Source: a virus
DNA length: 64,000 nt
Reading direction: 5' to 3' (one strand)
IMG/VR virus record: IMGVR_UViG_3300042559_000515
Location: 19,631 to 83,630 of that record
Below are positions 20,590-36,690 of the stretch, piece after piece (within the stretch, counting starts at the first letter, position 1; the number at the start of each line of letters is the position of its first letter). Below the pieces are notes generated by a model. That model was not told where the DNA came from, made no database searches, and saw only the letters and a list, made by a program, of their open reading frames with translations. The position numbers and the translations under genes were made by a program.

Positions 20590-20997
20590 TTAGTCTCGTT
20601 CGTGGAGATAGGTCTCATCTTCACGATGCACATGTGCGGGAAGGCGTTCCGACTGCGCCTCTGGGTCGTTCACAGCCTCTTTGTAGGTCACAGGGACCAT
20701 CCATGAGGGGTCAATGTCATGTGCGGCGGCAATACGGTGTGCACCATTGACAATACTGGTCTGACCACGGCTCCTGCCAAGACGAATGGGGTTGACCATC
20801 CCCTCTTTACGCAGGCTCGTATGCAGTCCTGACTTATATGCTTCATCGCTTTTGCGATTCCAGAATAATTCTTCAGAAGGATGACCAGACCTAGTGACAT
20901 CTTTTGTGGTCATTTCAAGGTCTGAGCCTTCAAGTTCTTCACGGAGCATGCTGGCTGGCATAAAGAGTTGTTCGTTGAGGTGATGCCAAGTAGCCAT
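20590..20997 (-). CDS. ParB/Srx-like protein (paralog 4)
   Basis: LHTSLRKEGMVNPI..IVNGAHRIAAA; TATACT-N6-ATG. Confidence 0.75.
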   Translation of the reverse strand: MATWHHLNEQLFMPASMLREELEGSDLEMTTKDVTRSGHPSEELFWNRKSDEAYKSGLHTSLRKEGMVNPIRLGRSRGQTSIVNGAHRIAAAHDIDPSWMVPVTYKEAVNDPEAQSERLPAHVHREDETYLHERD

Positions 20998-21110
20998 CTA
21001 TCCAGTATAGGGCTATCTAGGTGTGCAGGTGATTGTCCCGATTCCTGGTTAGGGCTATGTGGTGCGTGGGTGGTTTAGGGCTTAGTCGGTCCTACCCCCC
21101 ACCCTGTCCG

Positions 21111-21140
21111 AGGGTACCACTTAACCATGGGGGGTGTCAA
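21111..21140 (-). promoter_or_regulatory. leftward sigma-A-type promoter
   Basis: Minus strand reads TTGACA-N18-TACCCT. Confidence 0.5.
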
Positions 21141-21150
21141 GCCCTGAGCA

Positions 21151-21223
21151 TATGACATTCGTCACATGTGCCCATCGTCACACCCCCGACCATGTGACCT
21201 TCGTCACAGTGACCTTTGTCACA
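21151..21223. promoter_or_regulatory. four CRP/GlxR-like palindromes (TGTGA-N6-TCACA)
   Basis: TATGACATTCGTCACA at 21151, TGTGCCCATCGTCACA at 21167, TGTGACCTTCGTCACA at 21193 (perfect consensus), AGTGACCTTTGTCACA at 21208. Confidence 0.7.
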
Positions 21224-21245
21224 CCCCGTTTACTTGACATCCAGG

Positions 21246-21588
21246 AAACCCTTACACCGCAAGGGTTTGCGGGGTACTCATCATAGTTCCCCCCCAATGT
21301 CAACCCCCCCTACTCCCCAGTAAACCCTTATGGCATAAGGGAATCCTCTCAGACGCTCTCTAAGCCCCTCTACCCATGAGTAACCCCCTCTAGGCACCTA
21401 GCACCCATTTTGCGCATTTAAACGGCTCTACGGCGATTCTGCATGTTTATGCAGGGCTTCAAATACCCCTGATTTCATTGACTATTTGAAGATTGAGCCT
21501 GTCAAAAACACCAATGAAAACGGGCTTTTTGGTTTTGACATCGCAGATATTCCATACATCCCATGAAACCCTTGAGCCATAAGGATTT
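21246..21588. repeat. three imperfect AAACCCTT-N7-AAGG(G/A) palindromes
   Basis: 21246 AAACCCTTACACCGCAAGGGTTT; 21322 AAACCCTTATGGCATAAGGGAAT; 21566 AAACCCTTGAGCCATAAGGATTT. Confidence 0.65.
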
Positions 21589-21924
21589 GCGCCCATTTGG
21601 CACATATTTCATACAGAAAATGATGCATGAACATGCACTACAACTGGGGCTATGGAATCAGGGGCACACACAAGGGGGCGAGGGGGGCAGGTATTCCCCA
21701 CACCTCCGATGCCCAAGGCACAATCCCGATGCCCCAGCACACCCCTGAGCCTCCAGCACCTACTCCCCCCTCAGACCACACAGAAGAGCCTTCAGAGCGT
21801 TCAAATACCCTCTCTGCCACCTGCATACCCTCCCCCTGTCTTCCCCCTATCAGAGGCTCTCCCAGCACGGTTTGGGCGCCCTTTTCCTCACCCCCCTATC
21901 CCTCGGAGCCTTGCCATATATGGG

Positions 21925-21988
21925 CAAAAAAAGAATCAGAAAAAACATTTGAAAACTATTGACATTCCGAAATGCCCTCTGCGAGACT
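21925..21988 (+). promoter_or_regulatory. strong early promoter with A-rich UP element
   Basis: A-tracts at 21926-21957, TTGACA at 21959-21964, 18-nt spacer, then GAGACT. Confidence 0.65.
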
Positions 21989-21996
21989 GGGGGTGA

Positions 21997-22031
21997 GGGG
22001 CGCTTCGGCGCCTCGCTCTTTGAAAACTGAA
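21997..22031 (+). promoter_or_regulatory. boxB-like hairpin plus boxA-like antitermination element
   Basis: GGGGCGC-TTCG-GCGCCTC immediately followed by GCTCTTTGAAAACTGAA. A second copy, CCTTGAAAATTGAAGATT, lies at about 22160. Confidence 0.6.
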
Positions 22032-22710
22032 GATTCCGCCGTGTTCTTGATGGCTGGGCTTTGCCCATTCCATAGCGCCCTGTTCCTGTCCTGCCCTAAG
22101 TCCTTGGGCATTGCAGTTCAGATTCAGTTGCCTCCACGGTTCATGGAATCCAGTCAGTCCCTTGAAAATTGAAGATTCTCCGCCAGCAGAGCAAACGCTC
22201 GCCACGCTGGTTTACGGTCAGAGCACTTGACCCAGTTCATACGAAGCCCTTGGCAGGGTGAGAATCAATCAGATATGCGCCACGGTCGGCAAGGGGTGGC
22301 AACCCCTCCCCAGTCAGACCGTGGTTATTGCGAACTAGCAGGTTCTGTGAACCTCCTCGGCTCCGCTAAGTCCACTCGGTGGATACTGGCGGATGACCCA
22401 CTGACGCTAAGTCCAACGCTGACACTGCATTGTGTTGACCCCATAGTGGGTCACTTGCTCCAAGGAGCCTTTGCAGGACAGGCAATGGTAATGCGAATCG
22501 GATGGAGGGTTCCGTTCATCAAGGTCACCACTTCGGTGTGTGCGCCAATTACGAACGAGGGCAGGTGTCAAGGGATTGGCACGACACACAGAACAGAGGC
22601 TCTGCGGAGAAGGACTCAACTAGCACCGACTACACGGCACACGGTTCGCAACCCACACCAGTTGACGCTCAAGGTCAGTTGGAAAGCATCAGCACATGGT
22701 GTGGGGTCGC
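22032..22710 (+). ncRNA. candidate large structured leader/ncRNA
   Basis: No credible CDS between the promoter and the first RBS; many stems (CCACGGTC/GACCGTGG, GACCCACT/AGTGGGTC, CCCACACCA/TGGTGTGGG); three copies of CTAAGTCC. Confidence 0.5.
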
Positions 22711-22711
22711 A

Positions 22712-22792
22712 ACGGTGTCGGGGGGTTCGCCCCTCGGCTCCGTGCCACTGGCACATCGCAAGGTGTGCTGGTGGGACGGATAATCCGTTCCC
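22712..22792 (+). promoter_or_regulatory. overlapping three-hairpin RNA element, copy 1
   Basis: Hairpin A (TTCG loop); long stem B, TCCGTGCCACTGGCACATC-GCAA-GGTGTGCTGGTGGGACGGA; hairpin C, GGGACGGA-TAA-TCCGTTCCC. Confidence 0.65.
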
Positions 22793-22814
22793 TCTACCAA
22801 AGGAGCACCACACA

Positions 22815-23276
22815 ATGGCACTTAATGTTGATTGGGGAAACACCCCCGTTTATAAAGAGTTCCTCGCCACCACCCCTGATGGCGACTTCACTGACTCCAA
22901 CGGCTACCCACGCTTCCCTATCGGTGACCTCATGTTCAGCATGATGATTGTCCAGCAGGGTCGCATCTCTGAGAAGAACGCCCACAAGGTGTTCGCTCGC
23001 CTGTCGCTTTACCTTGAAGCGATGGTCGGTGGTTCATTCTCACGAGTGTGGGATGGCGAGAAGGTCATTGAAGAACGACTCAGCCCTGAGCACATCAAGC
23101 GTGCGATGGGCTTGCGAGTCAATGTGTCCGATGAGTCCGATACCAGTTGGGTGCAGTACTTCTTGCGTCTTGTAAAGCGTGAGAATGCTGAGCCTGTTGC
23201 TGGCATGACCGAATGGACAACGGCGAATATCAAGCGCCACCTTGCGAAGTACGAGGTTGACTACCTCGCCTCGTAA
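22815..23276 (+). CDS. early hypothetical protein
   Basis: AAGGAGCACCACACAATG RBS; starts MALNVDWG. The ORF-track extension to 22227 is rejected. Confidence 0.8.
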   Translation: MALNVDWGNTPVYKEFLATTPDGDFTDSNGYPRFPIGDLMFSMMIVQQGRISEKNAHKVFARLSLYLEAMVGGSFSRVWDGEKVIEERLSPEHIKRAMGLRVNVSDESDTSWVQYFLRLVKRENAEPVAGMTEWTTANIKRHLAKYEVDYLAS

Positions 23277-23294
23277 GTCACACCCACTACCAAA

Positions 23295-23366
23295 GGCATC
23301 AGCGCTTCGGCGCTGGTGTCCTCACTGTGCATCGGCTTCGGTCGGTGCATGGTGAGGACATTGTCC
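23295..23366 (+). promoter_or_regulatory. three-hairpin RNA element, copy 2
   Basis: GGCATCAGCGC-TTCG-GCGCTGGTGTC; TGTCCTCACTGTGCATCGGC-TTCG-GTCGGTGCATGGTGAGGACA; GGAC-ATT-GTCC. Confidence 0.75.
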
Positions 23367-23388
23367 ACAACACAAGGAGCACCACACA

Positions 23389-23754
23389 ATGAAAGCAACC
23401 GACCCTGAGTTTGCAGGAATGCACCACGATGAAATCTTGAAGCACTTTGCAGGCATCAAGGCAAGCATCAAGAAAATGGGGGGCGTGACAGTCCCTCCAA
23501 CACGCCAGCAGGTTGAGTGGGACAGCGTCCCTCTCATTCACGAAGACGCAACAATCGGTCATGTTGTCAAAGACATCCGAATTGACAGCGTTGGTCATGT
23601 CGGCATCGTTGATGATGTGAGCGTCATCACGAAGCGTGACGGACGCACAGCAGTTGTTGTGTCGTTCCGATTCGTCAACCACACAACGCTCAACCAATCC
23701 CGTACCGACATCAGAACTCGCAAGGTTGAGTTCATCCTCAACAACAACCAATAG
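23389..23754 (+). CDS. early hypothetical protein
   Basis: Same AAGGAGCACCACACAATG RBS as the gene at 22815. Confidence 0.75.
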   Translation: MKATDPEFAGMHHDEILKHFAGIKASIKKMGGVTVPPTRQQVEWDSVPLIHEDATIGHVVKDIRIDSVGHVGIVDDVSVITKRDGRTAVVVSFRFVNHTTLNQSRTDIRTRKVEFILNNNQ

Positions 23755-23762
23755 GAGCACCA

Positions 23763-24047
23763 ATGACAACACCTAAGACATACCCAACCTTCACTGACCC
23801 TGACGGCGTCCTACAGCCGTTCAAGGGTATGACCACGGGGCGCCATGCGAAGCGTGTCGTCTCGTACTGGCGCAAGGATGCGAGTGAGCCGTGGAAACGC
23901 TTCGGTAACTCCGTGAGCGTTGACGCCATGGACAAGCGCATGCGTCACATTGAAAAGCAAGGATGGAAGATTCGTTACTCCATCATTGACATGGACAACC
24001 AACTCACCATCAAACAAATTGAAACCATCAACAAGGAGAACAAATAA
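23763..24047 (+). CDS. early hypothetical protein
   Basis: AGGAG RBS. Confidence 0.7.
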   Translation: MTTPKTYPTFTDPDGVLQPFKGMTTGRHAKRVVSYWRKDASEPWKRFGNSVSVDAMDKRMRHIEKQGWKIRYSIIDMDNQLTIKQIETINKENK

Positions 24048-24376
24048 TGAGCACATCAACCAACACACGCCACCCACTGACCATCTCGTACACCCTCATG
24101 GTGAGCGAGGAATTGCTGGACAACCTCAAGTCGCATGACGGCACCCGTTACTGGGTGCTGGGCGAATACGAAGTCCACACTGACTTTGAGGGTGAGACCT
24201 ACATCACCGACAACGGTCACCGCTTCAACTACGACACTGAGACCGCACTGCGTGGCATCGCACTGTGGATTCAGAACGGTGGTGACTGGGACGAACTCAA
24301 AGACTTGTCCACCGACCACTACGACCACGATGCCATTTGGCAGTACGGGTTCTTCGGTGAACTTGTCTACGGCTAA
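24047..24376 (+). CDS. early hypothetical protein
   Basis: TAATG coupling; C-terminal DHDAIWQYGFFGELVYG, a recurrent phage motif. Confidence 0.75.
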   Translation: MSTSTNTRHPLTISYTLMVSEELLDNLKSHDGTRYWVLGEYEVHTDFEGETYITDNGHRFNYDTETALRGIALWIQNGGDWDELKDLSTDHYDHDAIWQYGFFGELVYG

Positions 24377-24422
24377 CCCATTGACCACCTACAACAACAA
24401 CACCAACCAACAAGGAGCAATC

Positions 24423-25367
24423 ATGACCACATCAGTAACCGAGGTGCAGAGCACCCTTTCAACCTTCCAGCCTCGTGACCGCAAGTACGACTTGCGCACC
24501 GCCGAGGGCAAGTACTTCAAGCGCCTCAACTCGTACAACAGTGAGTACACAGTGACCACTGGCGTTGTCATCGTCCCTGAGGAGCGTGGCTACGGCGACA
24601 CTGCCACCGTCATTGATGTGACCTACGATGCCATCCATCTTGTGCGCACCGTTGATGTTGACAGCGACCTCGTTGAGACCTACCTCAAGGGCAAGTTGCA
24701 GTACGACTGGCAGTCTCGTGACCGCAAGAAGGCATCGTTCATTGTCGTCAACGAGGCGCTCTTCCAAGAGAGTTGGTCGGGCGGTCGCTGGGTGCATGTT
24801 GACTACTCCGTGTGGTCGCTTGAAGAGGGTGGCGAGGTAGTTGCCACCACTGGCACCAGCGACACTGACCATTACGAGACCTCACGCATTGTTGCTAAGG
24901 CGCTCGGTAATCGTGTGTTTGAGATGAACTCGGACATCCAAGCCAATGAAGCACGCAAGGCACAGGCTGACGAGCATGCACGCAAGGTTGCCGATGTCTT
25001 GTCAGCGTTCGTGCCGTCCTACTCCTACGAGCGTTCGCTTGCCGAAGCCACCAAGTTCATTGAGCGTGGTGTGAAGGAGTCAGAGGGTGAGAACAGTCAC
25101 TGGCACAATCATGTGCATGTCGCCATTGACATTGAGGTGATGAAACTCTGTAAGCGATATGTACAGATTCTCGGTGCGACCACCGACACTGTCCGCATTG
25201 CGTTCAACTCGTACAGCGGTGACATCAAGGTCGTTGATGAGCACATGGCATACGCCACGGTCATCGCAGAGCGCACTGGTGGTGGCTGGTCAAGCAACGA
25301 CTTCTCAGGAGCGTTGCTGGGTCAGGTACTTCACCGCTTCACCAAGATTGTCTGCCAGCACATCTAG
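24423..25367 (+). CDS. early hypothetical protein
   Basis: AAGGAG RBS before ATG 24423 (MTTSVTEVQ). Confidence 0.75.
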   Translation: MTTSVTEVQSTLSTFQPRDRKYDLRTAEGKYFKRLNSYNSEYTVTTGVVIVPEERGYGDTATVIDVTYDAIHLVRTVDVDSDLVETYLKGKLQYDWQSRDRKKASFIVVNEALFQESWSGGRWVHVDYSVWSLEEGGEVVATTGTSDTDHYETSRIVAKALGNRVFEMNSDIQANEARKAQADEHARKVADVLSAFVPSYSYERSLAEATKFIERGVKESEGENSHWHNHVHVAIDIEVMKLCKRYVQILGATTDTVRIAFNSYSGDIKVVDEHMAYATVIAERTGGGWSSNDFSGALLGQVLHRFTKIVCQHI

Positions 25368-25386
25368 TCACGACAACATCCCCCAA

Positions 25387-25473
25387 GGCATCACAGGCTC
25401 CCCCAGCCTGTGGTGTCCTCACAGGACATCGGCACTCCCCCAAGTGTCGGTGTCTTGTGAGGGCATACAGCCC
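25387..25473 (+). promoter_or_regulatory. three-hairpin RNA element, copy 3
   Basis: GGCATCACAGGCT..AGCCTGTGGTGTC; TGTCCTCACAGGACATCGGCACT..AGTGTCGGTGTCTTGTGAGGGCA; GGGC-ATACA-GCCC. Confidence 0.75.
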
Positions 25474-25499
25474 AGCACCACTATCAACAGGAGAATCCA

Positions 25500-26045
25500 A
25501 TGGGCGTTTATCAATACGCAATTACAAAGACCAAGCGAATCAAGGGACTGTCCGATGTCTTCGGTGACATCGGTGTGGTTGAGTTCCGCTACAGGTACTC
25601 GTGGTCACCGAACGAGAAGTTTGAGAAGTACTGCGCTCGCCTTGACGCCAATATTGAGCGCAAGTGGGCAGGCACTGAGTTGCCGATTCTTGTGACCGAC
25701 AAGAAGGGCAGGGGCTTGTCAGTGTGGGTCGGTGACAGTGCGAACTGGTGTGACGGTGACAGCAAGGGTGGCGAGATGCCAATCGGCTCATCGCAGGGCT
25801 GGGATGCCTTGTGGCACTGGGCAGAACGCAATGGTCGTTTGGAGATTCCACTGTGGTTGATGACCGCTGGCGACTTTGAGCACAGCCAAGAGATTCCATT
25901 CGTCCCGACTACTGAGAAGGCATACCGAGAACTGGTGGACGCCTGCTCCACTCTCCGCCTCCGTCAGCGTGGCGACAGCAACGCTCAGCCACAGATTCCG
26001 AACAACCGCTACTGGGTCAACAATGACCTCTACACATACCTTTAA
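25500..26045 (+). CDS. early hypothetical protein
   Basis: AGGAG RBS. Confidence 0.7.
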   Translation: MGVYQYAITKTKRIKGLSDVFGDIGVVEFRYRYSWSPNEKFEKYCARLDANIERKWAGTELPILVTDKKGRGLSVWVGDSANWCDGDSKGGEMPIGSSQGWDALWHWAERNGRLEIPLWLMTAGDFEHSQEIPFVPTTEKAYRELVDACSTLRLRQRGDSNAQPQIPNNRYWVNNDLYTYL

Positions 26046-26055
26046 GGAGAACCCA

Positions 26056-26352
26056 ATGACCATCAAGCAATACACAGTCACAATGTCCAGCACGCACTTC
26101 GTGCTTGCCGAATCCATATCGCAAGCGGAGAGCATCGTGTACGAGGCACTGCTTCGTCTCTCCAAGGTGGACGAGCGTGTCCCCGACAGTGAGGTGGACT
26201 GGTTCCACGCAGTCACCCTTGAGGACGGGCACTACTCAACCATCGTGCGAGACGGTGACGAGATGAGTGACTACGACAGGAAAGTCCAACGATTGAAGCG
26301 AGTGCGAGAACTCGTTGAGAAGGTCTGCAACGAAGAGATGGAGAAGAACTAA
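26056..26352 (+). CDS. early hypothetical protein
   Basis: TAAGGAG RBS before ATG 26056. Confidence 0.7.
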   Translation: MTIKQYTVTMSSTHFVLAESISQAESIVYEALLRLSKVDERVPDSEVDWFHAVTLEDGHYSTIVRDGDEMSDYDRKVQRLKRVRELVEKVCNEEMEKN

Positions 26353-26654
26353 TGACCACAATCACAGTTACATGGAAGGCGTTTGCGGACTCACTGACCT
26401 TTAAGGAGAAGGTCACATCGGCAACCATTAAGACCAACCGCATTCAAGGTGATGGCATCGCCATCGCTGAGGTGGTGTTCCGTGACACCAACCTCTACCA
26501 AGGCGTGCTGTGGGACTTGCTGGAGCCTGTCCTGCCTGAGAACCGAACACACACAGCACTGAGTGTTGGTGACGAGGTGACCGTTGACGGTCGCACTTAC
26601 CAATGCGCCAGTATCGGCTGGGTGGAACTCACCTTTGACGCAGTCAACCAATAA
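26352..26654 (+). CDS. hypothetical protein (YodL-like 'SLSVGD' motif)
   Basis: HTALSVGDEVTVDGRTYQCASIGW. Confidence 0.65.
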   Translation: MTTITVTWKAFADSLTFKEKVTSATIKTNRIQGDGIAIAEVVFRDTNLYQGVLWDLLEPVLPENRTHTALSVGDEVTVDGRTYQCASIGWVELTFDAVNQ

Positions 26655-26684
26655 ACAACCAGTTCTAGTAAAGGAGAACAAAAA

Positions 26685-27404
26685 ATGTCAGCCACCACCA
26701 TCACCCCCCGTCAGCAGTCATTTATTCGCTCACTCTTAGAGGAGCGTCTTGATGTACTGGAAATCACCAACCTTGACGAGTACATCGTCTCGGTCGGTCT
26801 CAACGCACTCACAGCGAACTCTGCGAGCAAACTCATTGAGCATCTCAAGTCGGTGCCTGTGGGCAAGAAGTCAGAGCATGCGCACTTGCCCGAAGGTCGG
26901 GTCATCGTCAACAAGTTCGCCAAGGAGTGCACGCTCTGTGGTGGCTTGGTGGACAGCGGTGCTGGTCATGCAGTGCAGACTGCTAATGGCTGGCGGACAT
27001 TCCATGCGATGGACAAGTGCAGTGCACCAGCCGATGCTCCACGCATCACGGTTGAGTCCAAGCGTGCGTATCGCTGTGACGATGGCACTGTCGCTATCGC
27101 CTACACCACACAGAACGGTCGCATTGCGATGCGCCGTCTTGTGATTCACGAGGACAACAAGGGTTCTCTTGAGTACTGGAAGGGCGGTGTCGCCATCGTG
27201 AGCGCCACTGGCTCGCTCCTTACGCAGGAGCAGGCATCCGAACTCGGCAAGGTGTACGGGTTCTGCATCTGCTGTGGCAAGGACTTGAGTGAAGACCAGT
27301 CGCTTGCTGTCGGGTATGGCAGGACTTGTGCTGGCAACAATGAGTGGTGGTACCCATCACCCAGTGAAGCACGAGAGATTCTCAACCGACCAGTCAGTAT
27401 CTAG
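26685..27404 (+). CDS. DUF6011-family zinc-finger protein
   Basis: GFCICCGKDLSEDQSLAVGYGRTCA plus NKFAKECTLCG; lies directly upstream of an SNF2 helicase. Confidence 0.75.
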   Translation: MSATTITPRQQSFIRSLLEERLDVLEITNLDEYIVSVGLNALTANSASKLIEHLKSVPVGKKSEHAHLPEGRVIVNKFAKECTLCGGLVDSGAGHAVQTANGWRTFHAMDKCSAPADAPRITVESKRAYRCDDGTVAIAYTTQNGRIAMRRLVIHEDNKGSLEYWKGGVAIVSATGSLLTQEQASELGKVYGFCICCGKDLSEDQSLAVGYGRTCAGNNEWWYPSPSEAREILNRPVSI

Positions 27405-27421
27405 TTCAACCCATTAGTTGA

Positions 27422-27506
27422 GGGGACAGCACGAGCAACTGTTCGTGCCGTCCTCACTATCTATTCGCAATGTGTGAGTAGGTAGTGAGGGCGATATCAT
27501 CGCCCC
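27422..27506 (+). promoter_or_regulatory. three-hairpin RNA element, copy 4
   Basis: GGACAGCACGAGC-AACT-GTTCGTGCCGTCC; CGTCCTCACTATCTATTCGCA-ATG-TGTGAGTAGGTAGTGAGGGCG; GGGCGAT-ATC-ATCGCCC. Confidence 0.75.
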
Positions 27507-27536
27507 TGAGCACCCAACATAACCAAGGAGTATTCC

Positions 27537-29075
27537 ATGTCCCACCGTTCCGCACTTGATGCCCTGCTGTCCTCAGCAGTGCGTGTCCCCAAACCCATTG
27601 ATGTCTGCCCCGAACTCACAGCGCTGTCGGGTGCACATGACTATGACCTCGGCTTTGACCTGTCACTGCCATTACTCCCGTACCAGCGTGCTGGTGTGGC
27701 GTATGCGCTCAAGCAACGCCGTGTCATCCTCGGTGACGAGATGGGCTTGGGCAAGACCCCACAACTCATTGCCGTGGCTCTCAAGGCTGTTGAGGACGGT
27801 CACCGTGCACTCATCGTGGTGCCACCGTCACTGCGCCTCAACTGGGACAGAGAGATTGCCAAGTTCACCTCTCGCCGTCTCACCGTGGAGATTGCTGAGG
27901 GCACCACGCCCTACGCACTGCGCAAGTCTGATGTCGTCATCATCGGTGACGCCAGTGTGGTCGGCTGGGCGCCTGCGCTCAACCGTCTCAACTTCGGTGC
28001 ACTGTTAGTTGACGAGGCACACCGCTTCAAGAACCCCAAGGCAAAGCGCACCATCGCATTGCAGGGCATCGCTCGTGGCATTGATGCTGACGGGTATGTC
28101 GTGCTCGCTTCGGGTACGCCAGCAACCAACCGCCCCGTTGAGTTGGTCGCACTGCTTGACACCATCGGTCGCCTTGACCCTGTGTTCGGTTCTGCTGGTT
28201 CATTCAAGTGGCGCTACTGCGACCCGATTCGCAATGCGTTCGGCTGGACATTCAACGGTTCAACCAACAGTGCCGAGTTGCACGACAAGTTGCGTGGCAC
28301 TTGCTACATCCGCCGTAAGAAGGCTGATGTGCTCACCGAGTTGCCAGCCAAGCGCCGTGCTCAGGTTGCTATCGCTCTGACCGATGTGGAGTTGCGTGAG
28401 TACCTCCGCATTGAGTCTGACTTCCTCATGTGGGTGTACGGCAAGGGTGGTCGTGAGGCTGTCATGCGTGTGTCTCGTGCCGAGGCAATCACGCAGTTGA
28501 CCGCACTGCGACAGGAGATGGCAAAGGTCAAGGTCAAGCACGCCATTGAGCACATTGAGTCCATCGTTGAGGGTGACCAGCCAGTGGTCATCTTCGGACA
28601 TCACCGTGCGGTGCTTGAGTCCATCATCGCTGAGTGTGAGACACGCTCTGCTGAAGACCCACGATGGAATGTCGTGAGTGTTCTCGGTGGCAAGTCCGAT
28701 GCACAAAAGCAACAAGCAGTGGACGACTTCCAGTCGGGTCGTGCGAGCGTGTTCGTGGGCAACTACACCTCCGCTGGTGTCGGTCTCACACTCACTCGTG
28801 CCAACCAGTGGGTGAGCGTGGAGTTACCGTGGACACCTGCTGAACTACAGCAAGCCGAAGACCGATGCCACAGATTCACGCAAACAGAATCTGTGACTTG
28901 CTGGCACCTGACTGGTGCTCGTGCCAATGGTCAGTTGACCATTGACGACCGACTCTTCGGTCTGCTCAACAGCAAGGCGGAGGTTCTCTCCGCAGTGCTT
29001 GACGGCAACGCCGAAGACCTCGGTGCTGAGGCTGGCTCACTGCTCGCCTCGCTCCTTGGTGACTGGGTCGGCTAA
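27537..29075 (+). CDS. SNF2-family helicase (SMARCAL1/HARP-like)
   Basis: DEMGLGKT, DEAH, SGTPATNRP, GVGLTLT, QAEDRCHR. Confidence 0.93.
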   Translation: MSHRSALDALLSSAVRVPKPIDVCPELTALSGAHDYDLGFDLSLPLLPYQRAGVAYALKQRRVILGDEMGLGKTPQLIAVALKAVEDGHRALIVVPPSLRLNWDREIAKFTSRRLTVEIAEGTTPYALRKSDVVIIGDASVVGWAPALNRLNFGALLVDEAHRFKNPKAKRTIALQGIARGIDADGYVVLASGTPATNRPVELVALLDTIGRLDPVFGSAGSFKWRYCDPIRNAFGWTFNGSTNSAELHDKLRGTCYIRRKKADVLTELPAKRRAQVAIALTDVELREYLRIESDFLMWVYGKGGREAVMRVSRAEAITQLTALRQEMAKVKVKHAIEHIESIVEGDQPVVIFGHHRAVLESIIAECETRSAEDPRWNVVSVLGGKSDAQKQQAVDDFQSGRASVFVGNYTSAGVGLTLTRANQWVSVELPWTPAELQQAEDRCHRFTQTESVTCWHLTGARANGQLTIDDRLFGLLNSKAEVLSAVLDGNAEDLGAEAGSLLASLLGDWVG

Positions 29076-29095
29076 CACAATCTGAGGTGGTGCTC

Positions 29096-29181
29096 ACGGG
29101 CGTCACGAGGTGCGAGCCTCGTGGCGTGCCGTGGTCATTGTGGGGTCGGGACACTCCGCAGTGACCACGGGACGCAAGTCC
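29096..29181 (+). promoter_or_regulatory. three-hairpin RNA element, copy 5
   Basis: GCGTCACGAGG..CCTCGTGGCGT; GCGTGCCGTGGTCATTGTGGGGT..ACTCCGCAGTGACCACGGGACGC; GGAC-GCAA-GTCC. Confidence 0.7.
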
Positions 29182-29212
29182 AAACAGCACCAACACAACA
29201 AGGAATTAAACA

Positions 29213-29581
29213 ATGAAGACACAAGCAATCATCACTATCAACCATCCCGACAACCTGTCAGCGAACTGGGTTATCGCTGATGTCATTGACCCATTCATCG
29301 CTGATGTCAACACTGGTGGCAACGATGAATGGAATCTCGCCTTGGCGTTGTCACTGACCGAGACGCAACTGCGTGACAAGGCATTGCGCAGTGCGCTGTT
29401 GCTGGTTCTCAGTGACTTCCCTGCGGACATGAGCAACGAGTGGATTCTTGACGGCGTCCTCAATGATGACGAGCGCATCATTGTGTGGGAGCCGTTCTCC
29501 ATCGTCAACTGGGACAAAGAAGAACTGGTCGCTCACATTGAGCAGACAGCGGACACCATCTACAACACATACTTTCAATAA
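29213..29581 (+). CDS. early hypothetical protein
   Basis: AAGGA RBS; acidic protein. Confidence 0.7.
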   Translation: MKTQAIITINHPDNLSANWVIADVIDPFIADVNTGGNDEWNLALALSLTETQLRDKALRSALLLVLSDFPADMSNEWILDGVLNDDERIIVWEPFSIVNWDKEELVAHIEQTADTIYNTYFQ

Positions 29582-29592
29582 GGAGACAAACA

Positions 29593-29790
29593 ATGAAGAC
29601 AGAGACCATCAACAACATCCTGCTCGTACTACTGGGAATGGCACTTGCTCTTGGGAGTGTCATCTTGTGGGACACCGTGGACTACTACGCCAAGTGTGAT
29701 GCGGTCGTGGTGCAGGACATCAATGGCAATCGCTACTGCGTGGACAAGGCAACGCTCGTTGAGAGCACAACAACTAATTACAACAAGTAA
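29593..29790 (+). CDS. small membrane protein
   Basis: N-terminal TM helix; AAGGAG RBS. Confidence 0.65.
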   Translation: MKTETINNILLVLLGMALALGSVILWDTVDYYAKCDAVVVQDINGNRYCVDKATLVESTTTNYNK

Positions 29791-29800
29791 AGGACACATC

Positions 29801-30082
29801 ATGAACCCATACGAACAACCCGAACAACCAATCGGTTGCCAATGCAATGTCACCTTCGGTGGTCAAGAGATGGCAGTCATCATCGCATTCGGTGATGACC
29901 CAGTTATCACTGACGACATCGGCAACCCTTGGTATGACCTTGACATCAATGTCTTCTACTACCTCAACGATGCAGAGACAGACCAACTACACGATGCAGT
30001 CAACAAAGGCTTAGAGGGCTTTGCTGTTGACGGCGAAATTGAAATAGTCATTGACAGTGACTTTGAATACCTTTTTCTTTAA
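29801..30082 (+). CDS. early hypothetical protein
   Basis: AAGGA RBS before ATG 29801. Confidence 0.65.
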   Translation: MNPYEQPEQPIGCQCNVTFGGQEMAVIIAFGDDPVITDDIGNPWYDLDINVFYYLNDAETDQLHDAVNKGLEGFAVDGEIEIVIDSDFEYLFL

Positions 30083-30094
30083 GGAGCAACCAAC

Positions 30095-30415
30095 ATGAAC
30101 ATCACATCAGAACAAGAGCAGGCAGTAGACAACTGGGAGTACCAGTACCGACCCATCAAGAACCACATCAGTGGTGACCTTGGATGGAACGGCACCGTCT
30201 TTGAGACCTACGGAGACGACATTGCGTTCGTGGTTTCACAGCCACAAAACCTCATATGGACATGGGTAGACACCGACAATGGCACAACCATCCTCAGTGG
30301 TTACCACCTTGTCAATCGCATCGGTTACTTCGTGACCGAGTACCCATGGGTGAGACCAACCGAGGTGCAGGTAGAGACCTACACAGAAGAAGAAACAGAA
30401 GAGGAGCCGTTCTAA
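30095..30415 (+). CDS. conserved phage hypothetical protein
   Basis: FETYG..IWT..GYHLVNRIGYFVTE.PW motif. Confidence 0.75.
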   Translation: MNITSEQEQAVDNWEYQYRPIKNHISGDLGWNGTVFETYGDDIAFVVSQPQNLIWTWVDTDNGTTILSGYHLVNRIGYFVTEYPWVRPTEVQVETYTEEETEEEPF

Positions 30416-30639
30416 TGCAGAACATCAAGTTCGTTCAGAGTGTGACCATCTCGGTCACCTTTGACATGTCCTTTCCCAGCGACTGGACACTCCAGCAGAT
30501 TCTGGAGAGCATCAAGGACACCACCACTGATATCAGTGCACATGTCCTGCCCGAAACACTTCCACAAGGTGCAGTAAGTAACAGCACCATTGTGGATGAC
30601 ATCATTATCAACCACACCGCCATACAGGAGAACAACTAA
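30415..30639 (+). CDS. early hypothetical protein
   Basis: TAATG coupling; GAGGAG RBS. Confidence 0.6.
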   Translation: MQNIKFVQSVTISVTFDMSFPSDWTLQQILESIKDTTTDISAHVLPETLPQGAVSNSTIVDDIIINHTAIQENN

Positions 30640-31052
30640 TGACCGCAACAACCGCCAGTGACTTCCAAGTCACGCTCGCATACATCCAACAGAACATTGA
30701 TGCCATCGCTGAGTTTGCTCAGCAGTTCCTCAATGAGAACTACTTTGAAGACGATGATGTCTTCCACTCATACGGAGACCGTGTTGACCTCAACTTCATC
30801 CGAGATGAAGATGACAACAAGTGGAGGTGCTTTGCATACCCAGTGGTCAACGGTGACCCCTCCTATGACTACGAGGTAGCCATCCCAGTGGACACCGATA
30901 CCTACAAGGTTGTGCGGTTCTACAAAGACATCAGCCGTGCCAACAAGGTCATCCTGACTGGACTTACCTTGCAGGACGCAAAGGAACACTGCAAGCGTGA
31001 TGACACGCACAGTGACGACTGGTTTGACGGATACGAAAAGGAAAGCAAGTAA
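30639..31052 (+). CDS. early hypothetical protein
   Basis: YKVVRFY..GLTLQDAKEHC..DT..WFDGY C-terminal motif. Confidence 0.7.
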   Translation: MTATTASDFQVTLAYIQQNIDAIAEFAQQFLNENYFEDDDVFHSYGDRVDLNFIRDEDDNKWRCFAYPVVNGDPSYDYEVAIPVDTDTYKVVRFYKDISRANKVILTGLTLQDAKEHCKRDDTHSDDWFDGYEKESK

Positions 31053-31243
31053 TGGAAACACAAGTCAGCAAGCAATCACTGGACACCATCGTTGATGCTC
31101 TGTTCCTCTACATGAAGTGGAACGAGGGATTCTCAAAGGTGGCTATCACACAGAACGACTACGAAGCATCAGCACGACACATCATCAACGCAAACAACGC
31201 AGAGCGAGCAATCGCAGAACTCAAACAACAAGGAGACAAATAA
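31052..31243 (+). CDS. early hypothetical protein
   Basis: TAATG coupling at both ends. Confidence 0.6.
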   Translation: METQVSKQSLDTIVDALFLYMKWNEGFSKVAITQNDYEASARHIINANNAERAIAELKQQGDK

Positions 31244-31416
31244 TGAACCCTGAGAAATACCATTGGTTCGCAGAAGACGGTTCCTATGGCAGTGGTGTCA
31301 CCCTCGTGGTGGACACCAGCAACTGGACGGATGAAGACTGGCGAGACATTGAAGACACATCAGACAGCGAGCGCTCCACAGTGGCGCTTGAGATAACCAA
31401 GAAGAGAAAGGGGTAG
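31243..31416 (+). CDS. early hypothetical protein
   Basis: AAGGAG RBS; MNPEKYHWFAEDGSYG. Confidence 0.6.
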   Translation: MNPEKYHWFAEDGSYGSGVTLVVDTSNWTDEDWRDIEDTSDSERSTVALEITKKRKG

Positions 31417-36018: not shown

Positions 36019-36582
36019 CTAAGGGCGAGTCTTCTTCCACTCCGCCATACCAGCCTCGGTGTAGCGGTCACGGAGTGGTTTGCGTGTCTTCCAGTTAATG
36101 CAGTTCTTGCCCCAGTTCTTTGAACTGCGCCAGCCGATTGCTGGTCGGAAGAAAGGCTTGTTGTTCAACTTGTCATCAAGTGTTCTGAACACATTCTTGG
36201 TCTGAAATCCGAAGAACGAGATTCTGTTGGCAACGATAATTTGCTCTTCTTTGGTTGCGTTCTTTGGTGATGTTGCGAACTGCCATCCACCGAATCCACG
36301 CCATGCGCTTTGAGCGATACCGAGACCACCTGCGTAGTAGCCACCGTCATTCCACTTGTGGTTGGTCTCACACCATGAGACTGCTTCCCAGAAGCGGACT
36401 GAGCCTGCCTTTTTAGTTTTGAGTTGTGCCTGTAGTTCAGGATGCATCATGTTGATGCTTTGCGCTTGGACTGTTGTAGCCACAGTGGTTGTAGTCGTCA
36501 CCTCCACTTCTTGTGCCGATGCTCCATGCATCCCTAATGGAAATGAAAGTGTGGCGACTAAGCCAATGCGTGCTAACAGCAA
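36019..36582 (-). CDS. secreted resuscitation-promoting-factor-like lytic transglycosylase
   Basis: Signal peptide (..GASA); WEAVSWCET..W..YYAGGLGI.QSAWRGFGG..ATKEEQIIVANRI matches the Rpf core with catalytic Glu. TTG start after AAGGAG. Confidence 0.85.
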   Translation of the reverse strand: MLLARIGLVATLSFPLGMHGASAQEVEVTTTTTVATTVQAQSINMMHPELQAQLKTKKAGSVRFWEAVSWCETNHKWNDGGYYAGGLGIAQSAWRGFGGWQFATSPKNATKEEQIIVANRISFFGFQTKNVFRTLDDKLNNKPFFRPAIGWRSSKNWGKNCINWKTRKPLRDRYTEAGMAEWKKTRP

Positions 36583-36690
36583 GGTGTACTCCTTTGTAGG
36601 CGGATAAAGCACGAAACCCATACCAAGAGAGACACGAGTGTCTCAGGGGGTGACCTTGGTATGGGCTTCTGTATCTACTATACAGGGTAG

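What the first reader, a model, noticed from the sequence alone, without database searches (positions are those of the whole stretch)
22032..22710. Candidate large (~700 nt) structured non-coding RNA at the head of the early transcript
Seen: about 800 nt separate the promoter from the first SD-led gene in an otherwise dense genome. Local stems include 22280-22324 CCACGGTC/GACCGTGG enclosing AGGGGT-GGCA-ACCCCT, 22363-22394, 22396-22452 and 22652-22705, and CTAAGTCC occurs three times. Long-range complements exist (22085-94 with 22473-82 perfect 10 bp; 22131-42 with 22495-508; 22155-65 with 22568-78; 22176-83 with 22604-11), but they cross each other and some may be chance. Inference: a GOLLD/ROOL-scale phage RNA or protein sponge, released by processing at the element at 22712. 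I do not recognise a known family.
Basis: partly seen in the sequence, partly recalled or inferred. Interest (0 to 1): 0.75.

Follow-up and report, generated by a model that had tools for sequence, protein, structure and literature searches.

The report
Long untranslated leader, phage early operon
An 820-base gene-free stretch at the start of a lake phage's early operon is most likely a folded, untranslated leader RNA that begins like a ribosomal-RNA operon, but only about a third of it is conserved and a function of its own is unproven.

Summary
The sequence features are real. About 820 nt without coding signal lie between a conserved promoter (-35 at 21959-21964) and the first SD-led gene (ATG 22815). 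All the stems, the three CTAAGTCC copies and the four long-range complements are present.

It is not one conserved ~700-nt RNA. In the only full relative found (L002), two blocks stay near-identical: A (22025-22158) and B (22381-22490). The ~210-nt stretches between and after them are replaced by unrelated sequence. A more distant lineage (L007-L009) has a leader of only ~250 nt.

All lineages share the head: promoter, small 5' hairpin, then a boxA-like motif (22015-22027) matching published rrn boxA consensuses.

Block A folds as a self-closing ~130-nt domain. Blocks A and B can also pair (22080-22107 with 22460-22488) in both phages.

Rfam gives nothing, so no GOLLD/ROOL membership. Folding z-scores are no better than those of neighbouring coding stretches. 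Covariation cannot be tested with two sequences, and no RNA data were available.

Best reading (0.5): a Nus/boxA-protected untranslated leader with conserved RNA modules, ended by RNase III-like hairpins at 22712. [quoted passage not shown] A sponge role is speculative.

The parts
21930..21988 (+). Promoter of the early operon: A-rich upstream stretch, -35 TTGACA (21959-21964), 18-nt spacer, TG (21980-21981) plus weak -10 GAGACT (21983-21988). The start site is inferred near 21994-21996.
   Evidence: Sequence. The A-rich stretch and -35 are invariant in the window, L002, L007 and L008. TGn-GAGACT is kept in L002; L007/L008 have TATGCT there. The consensus scan did not list it because the -10 is weak. 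The start site is inferred.
21997..22014 (+). Small 5' hairpin (7 bp, UUCG loop), boxB-like in position.
   Evidence: L002 keeps a hairpin with the same loop and a changed stem: 1 pair changed on both sides. L007/L008/L009 have a different hairpin at the same place.
22015..22027 (+). boxA-like motif GCUCUUUGAAAAC directly after the hairpin.
   Evidence: It compares with the E. coli and B. subtilis rrn boxA consensuses quoted in PMC13753749. GCUCUUU is kept in L002. A related motif sits at the same place in L007-L009.
22025..22158 (+). Block A: a conserved module that folds alone into a domain closed by a 17-pair interrupted helix (22026-22043 with 22135-22158).
   Evidence: Identity to L002 is 0.95-1.0 over 22040-22139. 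The only differences are 22068 T>C and one inserted C at 22069, both in a predicted internal loop. The fold z-score is -3.26 on + and -3.19 on -.
22080..22107 (+). 5' strand of the long-range A-B helix (5+10+7 bp).
   Evidence: It is in the minimum-energy fold of both the window and L002. Pair probabilities are 0.44-0.48 in the window leader, except 0.08 for the first pair of the 10-bp part and about 0 for the outer 5-bp part. In L002 they are 0.96-1.0.
22158..22178 (+). Second boxA-like motif, the second copy of an 18-nt direct repeat whose first copy is at 22019-22036.
   Evidence: It is partly kept in L002, where it reads more like the L007-L009 motif.
22170..22380 (+). Variable stretch V1, several local hairpins including 22279-22325.
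   Evidence: Identity to L002 is 0.25-0.7. L002's counterpart has no match in the window at E<=0.05. The small hairpin 22189-22200 is kept with changed loops in L002 and in runs X16/X22.
22381..22490 (+). Block B: conserved module with hairpin 22394-22453 and the 3' strand of the A-B helix (22460-22488).
   Evidence: Identity is 0.8-1.0, and 1.0 over 22420-22479. L002 carries a 19-nt tandem duplication that adds a hairpin and leaves the helix strand intact. Alone, the block does not fold significantly (z -0.81).
22491..22711 (+). Variable stretch V2 with the stem 22652-22705.
   Evidence: Identity to L002 is 0.3-0.65. L002's counterpart has no match in the window.
22712..22796 (+). Three-hairpin punctuation element: UUCG hairpin, an approximately 18-bp GCAA-loop hairpin, and a short hairpin. 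It is the likely 3' limit of the leader.
   Evidence: It is one of five copies before early genes. In their alignment, 19 of 30 predicted pairs have changes on both sides, with many G-U pairs on the + strand. Copies are also conserved in L007/L008/L010. The pairing of this copy was read by eye.
22800..22817 (+). SD AAGGAG and the ATG of the first gene (153 aa).
   Evidence: All 13 homologues are 153-155 aa and align from the same first residue.

Best explanation
The stretch is the untranslated leader of the phage's rightward (probably early) operon.

Proposed mechanism:
1. Host RNA polymerase starts at a conserved promoter near 21995.
2. The first RNA made is a small hairpin followed at once by a boxA-like motif, as in ribosomal-RNA operons.
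3. By analogy, this motif would load host NusB/S10 and the other Nus factors and make the polymerase resistant to Rho and to hairpin-induced termination.
4. A phage needs that protection to carry transcription through ~800 nt of untranslated RNA and then through an operon punctuated by long hairpins.

In this lineage the leader has been enlarged by two conserved RNA modules. Block A is a self-closing ~130-nt domain. Block B can pair with block A and enclose ~350 nt. They are separated by freely replaceable spacers.

The leader ends at an RNase III-like hairpin element at 22712.

Shown: absence of coding signal, the conservation pattern, the motif matches, and the predicted folds in two phages.
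Inferred: transcription, Nus factor binding, cleavage, and any trans-acting function.
For: Non-coding:
- GC at codon positions 1/2/3 is flat (0.60/0.56/0.56) in the one long open frame, against about 0.57/0.39/0.65 in seven neighbouring genes.
- A 1-nt insertion at 22069 in L002 and in run X16 breaks the only ATG-started frame across block A.
- 9 of 10 ORFs from the intergenic gap 21627-22941, 7 of them overlapping the finding, are absent from the protein collection. The one present lies upstream at 21653-21868.
- All 13 homologues of the first gene are 153-155 aa and align from the same start.

Conserved head: the A-rich stretch, the -35, a hairpin and a boxA-like motif align in the window, L002, L007 and L008.
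- The hairpin differs in sequence but is kept.
- The pattern YYCYTTGAMAAY occurs only twice in 64 kb on both strands, both times in the leader.
- It occurs once at the operon head of L007, L008 and L009.

boxA match: GCUCUUUGAAA shares GCUCUUU with the E. coli consensus and UCUUUGAAA with the B. subtilis consensus. B. subtilis rrn operons also have a small 5' hairpin immediately before boxA (passages of PMC13753749). The same paper notes boxA before other untranslated RNAs.

Modules:
- Blocks A and B are 95-100% identical to L002, while the flanks are unalignable.
- The few changes inside or next to the blocks fall in predicted unpaired places.
- The A-B helix is predicted in both phages. A perfect complement that long between the two blocks arose in 15 of 1000 shuffles.

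Punctuation element: 19 of 30 pairs show compensatory change among five copies.
Against: - No RNA data: none of the 24 listed runs is on record as RNA.
- No covariation within the finding: of 55 pairs predicted on the window/L002 alignment, only 1 changes on both sides, and it lies in the 5' hairpin.
- Fold z-scores are not exceptional. With one method, the leader's 481-nt windows score -4.0 and -2.3; eight downstream stretches of the operon score -3.4, -3.2, -2.5, -0.8, -0.1, -3.3, -0.1 and -2.9. The leader's 300-nt windows range from -0.25 to -4.27.
- There is no consistent strand bias. Block A scores -3.26 on + and -3.19 on -, and 22450-22749 folds better on the - strand. DNA-level dyad symmetry is therefore not excluded.
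- Exact runs of 83-156 nt between the two phages also occur inside genes, so the blocks are conserved like good coding sequence, not beyond it.
- The two folds of block A (self-closed, or paired with B) exclude each other, and nothing here decides between them.
- One deletion in X16 (22436) falls in a predicted stem.
- The promoter's -10 is weak, and the consensus scan missed it.
Confidence: 0.5

Rival explanations
1. The conserved blocks act as DNA rather than RNA. They would be extra promoters, operators or iterons, or a replication or partition site, within the large regulatory region next to a ParB-like gene. The repeated words are protein-binding sites, and the dyad symmetry is incidental or forms cruciforms.
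For: - Same-orientation repeats occur: CTAAGTCC three times and an 18-mer twice.
- The ~1 kb upstream (21000-21990) clearly holds repeated palindromes and hairpin motifs typical of binding sites.
- The neighbouring gene matches ParB-like families weakly (E 0.001).
- Block A folds equally well on both strands.
- A promoter-like site was scored inside block B at 22419-22447.
Against: - Only 1 of the 3 CTAAGTCC copies is intact in L002.
- Promoter-like sites were not more frequent than in shuffles: 2 found against 1.3 expected.
- The blocks are ~110-130 nt of uninterrupted conservation, longer than a usual binding site.
- The stretch lies between a conserved promoter/boxA head and the first gene, so it is probably transcribed whatever else it does.
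- The complete 94.9-kb relative that carries the ParB-like gene (G002) lacks the blocks.
Confidence: 0.22
2. The stretch is a spacer with no function of its own, left over from mosaic recombination and internal duplication. Only the promoter/boxA head and the hairpins at 22712 matter. The blocks are identical between the two phages because they were exchanged recently.
For: - The two genomes are strongly mosaic, with rearranged gene order and equally long exact runs inside genes.
- The leader bears marks of duplication: an 18-mer twice, an 11-mer twice, and a 19-nt tandem copy in L002.
- V1 and V2 are freely replaced.
- The distant lineage manages with ~250 nt.
- Thermodynamic stability is not unusual for this operon.
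Against: - Two separate blocks are kept while everything around them is replaced, and they are complementary to each other (p about 0.015).
- The conservation limits of block A coincide with the ends of its closing helix.
- The stretch is held, wholly or in part, by runs from 21 studies of lake and fresh water. A contig in run X16 spans it at about 95% identity with block A nearly unchanged. That table showed only 40 of 105 differences.
Confidence: 0.18
3. The stretch encodes one or more small proteins, or an N-terminal extension of the first gene.
For: One reading frame has a single stop codon (22170) between 21996 and 22814. It is open for 196 codons in frame with the first gene.
Against: - There is no codon-position periodicity.
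- No SD precedes any start in the stretch.
- The frame is closed in L002 just upstream of the gene.
- Indels in relatives break the frame.
- No such ORF is in the protein collection.
- All homologues start at the same methionine.
Confidence: 0.03

Closest known systems
Ribosomal RNA operon leader (boxB hairpin, boxA, boxC, leader-trailer helix) and its Nus-factor antitermination complex
   Same: It shares the order promoter, small hairpin, boxA-like motif at the very 5' end of a long untranslated transcript. A later long-range helix encloses a structured RNA. The boxA-like motif matches published E. coli and B. subtilis consensuses (background from passages of PMC10250234).
   Different: The enclosed RNA is ~350 nt of phage-specific sequence, not rRNA. 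I recognised no boxC. Nus factor binding is untested. The host and its own rrn boxA are unknown. The A-B helix has no covariation support.
[quoted passage not shown]
   Same: Both are ORF-free regions of ~500 nt or more directly downstream of the early promoter and ahead of the first early gene. The phage here is probably also an actinobacterial one. In L5/D29 the RNA is abundant, stable and toxic to the host (passages of PMC5712189).
   Different: No sequence similarity to any record of the phage collection. Abundance, stability and toxicity are unknown here. The passages I read do not mention a boxA-type head for the mycobacteriophage RNA.
Phage lambda nut sites (boxA plus boxB) and the phage T7 early leader with RNase III sites between early genes
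   Same: These are phage early transcripts that carry an antitermination signal near their 5' end (lambda; passages) or are cut at long hairpins before each early gene (T7; recalled, from no call).
   Different: The order here is hairpin then boxA, as in rrn, not as in lambda. I did not look for an N-like protein. The T7 comparison rests on recall, and the hairpin family here is unrelated in sequence.
GOLLD and ROOL large RNAs of phages and prophages
   Different: No match to any Rfam model at gathering or at E<=10. No tRNA genes nearby. Only ~250 nt are conserved, in two separate blocks, rather than a conserved fold of 600-800 nt.

Membership tests
GOLLD / ROOL (and any other Rfam family) | Match to the family's covariance model | tested here: not met
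   There were 0 matches at gathering score in the whole window. At E<=10 the only hits were chance-level matches to animal miRNA, lncRNA and snoRNA models, far below their thresholds, in 20950-22900 and 21990-22500. The same holds for L002 at E<=5.
GOLLD / ROOL | Frequent neighbourhood of tRNA genes (a feature recalled from memory, from no call) | tested here: not met
   ARAGORN finds no tRNA or tmRNA in the 64-kb window.
rrn-type (Nus factor, boxA) antitermination leader | boxA sequence motif in the nascent RNA | tested here: met
   GCUCUUUGAAAAC lies at 22015-22027. It agrees with the E. coli consensus at 9 of 12 positions and with the UCUUUGAAA core of the B. subtilis consensus, both as quoted in PMC13753749. 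The comparison was made by eye.
rrn-type (Nus factor, boxA) antitermination leader | Position just after the promoter, preceded by a small hairpin, and conserved among relatives | tested here: met
   The alignment of four operon heads from two lineages keeps the -35, a hairpin and the motif in register. The motif pattern occurs nowhere else in the window. The pattern was derived from these same sequences, and L007-L009 are one lineage.
rrn-type (Nus factor, boxA) antitermination leader | Binding of NusB/S10 and termination-resistant transcription | not testable with these tools
   This needs the host's proteins and an assay. The host itself is unknown: an Rpf-type domain hints at Actinobacteria.
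rrn-type leader | Leader-trailer helix supported by covariation | tested here: inconclusive
   The A-B helix is predicted in both phages, and 15 of 1000 shuffles gave a perfect complement as long. Both strands are invariant between the only two sequences, so there is no covariation. A competing self-closed fold of block A exists.
Pleft-type early non-coding RNA of Cluster A mycobacteriophages | ORF-free region directly downstream of the early promoter | tested here: met
   compared with the description in PMC5712189.
Pleft-type early non-coding RNA of Cluster A mycobacteriophages | Sequence homology; abundant stable transcript | tested here: not met
   No blastn match in 50,697 phage records at E<=1e-5 (2.4-kb query) or E<=1 (511-nt query). 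Abundance could not be tested, as no RNA run was listed.
Protein-coding gene | Codon periodicity, conserved frame, ribosome-binding site | tested here: not met

The most novel reading that the evidence does not exclude
The phage carries a non-coding RNA gene built like a miniature rRNA operon. A promoter, hairpin and boxA drive Rho-proof transcription of a structured RNA. Its two conserved modules pair like a leader-trailer helix, so RNase III excises a stable ~380-nt RNA. That RNA acts in trans early in infection, for instance by titrating a host factor such as Nus factors, RNA polymerase or ribosomes through its CCUCC- and UCCUU-containing junctions. Its replaceable inserts would evolve quickly.
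Probability: 0.15. Interest if true: 0.7.

Novelty: new variant of a known kind. Interest (0 to 1): 0.4.

Why it matters
If the reading holds, it gives a second, unrelated example of a phage placing a long non-coding RNA at the very start of its early transcript. The first is the unexplained Pleft RNA of mycobacteriophages. Unlike that case, this one has a recognisable rRNA-type antitermination head, which suggests how such untranslated RNA escapes Rho.

It would also extend boxA-type antitermination to an uncultured freshwater phage group, and it offers two short, sharply bounded modules to test. As it stands, it is a lineage-restricted candidate with thin comparative support.

Tried and rejected
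Homologue hunting
- blastn against GenBank phages gave no match.
- Four exact or degenerate pattern scans of IMG/VR found only the L002 contig. The other six hits (L005, L021-L025) share nothing but the pattern.
- Scans with the first gene's protein, alone or as an alignment, gave only L002 in IMG/VR. They gave four distant loci in JGI metagenomes and nothing in prokaryote genomes.
- The ParB-like neighbour brought L003 and L004, which lack the blocks.
- Ten window ORFs were looked up in the hope that mis-called proteins on related contigs would serve as proxies. None from the leader is on record.

Expression: no RNA holder was listed among the 24 runs, so nothing can be said about expression.

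Laid contigs: parts without cover and the unlisted 65 of 105 differences could not be used.

Host: a scan with the Rpf-like protein gave one weak Variovorax hit of 28 residues, which is uninformative. The nearest isolates by DNA polymerase are Streptomyces phages at ~33%. I could not reach actinobacterial genomes to compare host rrn leaders.

Weak or rejected tests
- The whole-block duplex-energy shuffle test was uninformative: 382 of 1000 shuffles did as well.
- The direct repeats flanking block A suggested a mobile-element or target-site-duplication reading. I dropped it because the repeat overlaps the closing helix and is not kept in L002.
- Tandem sigma-70-type promoters inside the blocks got no support beyond chance.
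- Anti-SD-like words (CCTCC three times by eye, against about 1 expected by my own arithmetic) are not significant.
- I built no covariance model. Two near-identical sequences would add nothing over blastn.

Literature: searches were for analogues only. I make no claim that this element is absent from print. I did not request supplements of the papers cited; an alignment of the mycobacteriophage right ends is said to be in one.

Full report
Setting

The window is bases 19631-83630 of an 83,630-base IMG/VR virus record, rated 89% complete. Runs that hold the stretch are lake and freshwater metagenomes: 24 runs from 21 studies, none on record as RNA.

An Rpf-type transglycosylase domain (PF06737, E 1e-12) hints at an actinobacterial host. 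The nearest isolates by DNA polymerase are Streptomyces phages at about 33% identity.

The finding lies in a ~1.8-kb gap. On one side is a leftward gene with weak ParB-like matches (20590-20997, E 0.001). On the other is the first rightward gene, with SD at 22800 and ATG at 22815. The rightward genes are many small ORFs and a helicase. Calling them 'early' is an inference.

Observation

Every stem, the three CTAAGTCC copies and the four long-range complements are present. The octamer is enriched: 6 matches in the window against 1.5 expected, and 0 of 100 shuffles reached 6.

A perfect complement of 10 bp somewhere in 679 nt is common, arising in 18 of 100 shuffles. Between the two conserved blocks it is rare, arising in 15 of 1000.

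Not coding

- Neighbouring genes show GC of about 0.57/0.39/0.65 at codon positions 1/2/3. The one long open frame in the leader is flat at 0.60/0.56/0.56.
- That frame is oddly open, with one stop in 820 nt. It is closed in L002.
- The relative L002 and a contig of run X16 carry a 1-nt insertion at 22069.
- Of 10 ORFs looked up, the only one on record lies upstream of the finding.
- All 13 homologues of the first gene are 153-155 aa and share the start.

Known RNA families

Rfam gives nothing at gathering score for the whole window. At E<=10 it gives only chance-level hits, and likewise for L002. ARAGORN finds no tRNA or tmRNA.

Comparative anatomy

Only one relative with the whole leader could be fetched, L002/L006, whose first gene is 98% identical in protein. 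The alignment is a mosaic:
- Block A (about 22025-22158) and block B (22381-22490) are 95-100% identical.
- V1 (22170-22380) and V2 (22491-22711) are 25-70% 'identical' with many gaps. L002's versions find nothing in the window.
- The adjacent gene is 94.9% identical in DNA.

Exact runs of 83-156 nt also occur inside genes. The blocks are therefore conserved like good coding sequence, not beyond it.

A contig of run X16 covers 21832-23300 at about 95% identity. Among the 40 of 105 differences that were listed, only 22068 and 22069 fall in block A.

Relatives that share the ParB-like gene (L003, L004, and the complete 94.9-kb record G002) lack the blocks.

A distant lineage (L007-L009; first-gene protein about 32% identical) has a leader of only ~250 nt and a different first gene.

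The head of the operon

All four sequences from the two lineages align over four features:
- an A-rich stretch;
- an invariant TTGACA;
- a -10 region (TGn-GAGACT here, TATGCT in L007/L008);
- a small hairpin of differing sequence, followed by a boxA-like motif.

The window's motif, GCUCUUUGAAAAC (22015-22027), shares its first seven letters with the E. coli rrn consensus. It shares UCUUUGAAA with the B. subtilis consensus. In B. subtilis too, a small 5' hairpin immediately precedes boxA (passages of PMC13753749).

A degenerate pattern covering both lineages occurs only twice in 64 kb, both times in the leader. I tested it by the cross-lineage alignment and against the literature consensus. Binding of Nus factors remains an inference.

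Folds

- The stretch 22020-22500 folds with z -5.26 on + and -3.55 on -. The whole leader gives z -6.1 with 20 shuffles.
- With one method and 40 shuffles, the leader windows score -4.0 and -2.3. Eight downstream stretches of the operon score between -0.1 and -3.4.
- The leader's 300-nt windows range from -0.25 to -4.27, with no steady strand bias.
- The background for 46 windows is -1.1 +/- 1.4 on the + strand.

Stability alone therefore does not mark this stretch out.

More telling is the fit between fold and conservation:
- Block A alone folds (z -3.26) into a domain whose closing helix (22026-22043 with 22135-22158) coincides with the limits of conservation. Its only variable site lies in an internal loop.
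- Blocks A and B also pair (22080-22107 with 22460-22488) in the minimum-energy folds of both phages. Pair probabilities are about 0.45 here and about 0.99 in L002.
- L002's 19-nt duplication and X16's AA insertion spare that helix.
- One X16 deletion (22436) hits a predicted stem.

The two folds of block A exclude each other. With invariant strands there is no covariation: 1 of 55 pairs changes on both sides, and it lies in the 5' hairpin.

The 3' end

The element at 22712 is one of five copies before early genes. Among them, 19 of 30 predicted pairs change on both sides, and many G-U pairs point to the + strand RNA. Copies are kept in the distant lineage. A long imperfect hairpin before each cistron suits RNase III-type processing, but cleavage is inferred.

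Reading

I rate the rivals as follows:
- A boxA-protected untranslated leader carrying two conserved RNA modules and replaceable spacers, ended by a processing element: 0.5.
- DNA-level sites: 0.22.
- Functionless mosaic spacer: 0.18.
- Coding: 0.03.

The closest analogues are the rrn leader and the abundant, stable, toxic non-coding RNA made from Pleft in mycobacteriophages L5, D29 and StarStuff (passages of PMC5712189). There is no sequence similarity to the latter.

The GOLLD/ROOL comparison fails the membership test. The sponge idea is neither supported nor excluded.

Noticed in passing
window 21142-21227: There are four TGTGA-N6-TCACA-like palindromes in two phased pairs (repeat families D2, D3, D6). 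The relative L003 carries at least six similar TGTGACGAA-GTCACA sites in its equivalent region, counted by eye. They are probably operators of a CRP-family or phage regulator.
   Followed up: partly
window 21243-21274, 21316-21347, 21566-21588: A hairpin motif of the form AAACCCTT-loop-AAGGGTTT is repeated three times upstream of the promoter. Similar hairpins are visible in L002, L003 and L008. Its function is unknown.
   Followed up: no
window 21690-21860: A strongly C-rich, G-poor tract lies on the + strand just upstream of the early promoter (GC skew -0.19 for 21001-22000). If transcribed on the + strand it would resemble a Rho loading site. It is partly conserved in L002.
   Followed up: no
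window 22712, 23295, 25387, 27422, 29095 (start of each copy): A family of two-to-three-hairpin elements precedes early genes, with compensatory changes in 19 of 30 pairs. Copies at 23296-23361 and 25386-25469 are also conserved in the distant loci L007, L008 and L010.
   Followed up: partly
window 22746-22773: The long middle hairpin of the element at 22712 is replaced by about 110 other letters in L002 and in a contig of run X15. The punctuation element itself is therefore modular.
   Followed up: no
window 21996-22814: One reading frame has a single stop codon in 820 nt and is open for 196 codons in frame with the first gene. By my own arithmetic the chance of this is about 0.001. Yet its composition is clearly non-coding and the frame is closed in L002. 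This remains unexplained.
   Followed up: partly
window 22815-29000, + strand: Several coding stretches of the rightward operon fold markedly better than their shuffles, with z down to -3.4 for 481 nt and -5.1 for 22801-23100. The minus strand of the same stretches does not. The whole early mRNA may be unusually structured.
   Followed up: partly
window 23389-31250 versus L006: Gene order differs between the window and its close relative. For example, 25489-26037 follows the first gene directly in L006, and 23389-23750 has no match there. This is strong mosaicism at the scale of single small genes.
   Followed up: no
window 36022-36621 (- strand): A 200-aa protein carries an Rpf-type transglycosylase-like domain (PF06737, E 1e-12). 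Among the 14 control genomes, the same family rang only in Corynebacterium glutamicum. This hints at an actinobacterial host.
   Followed up: partly
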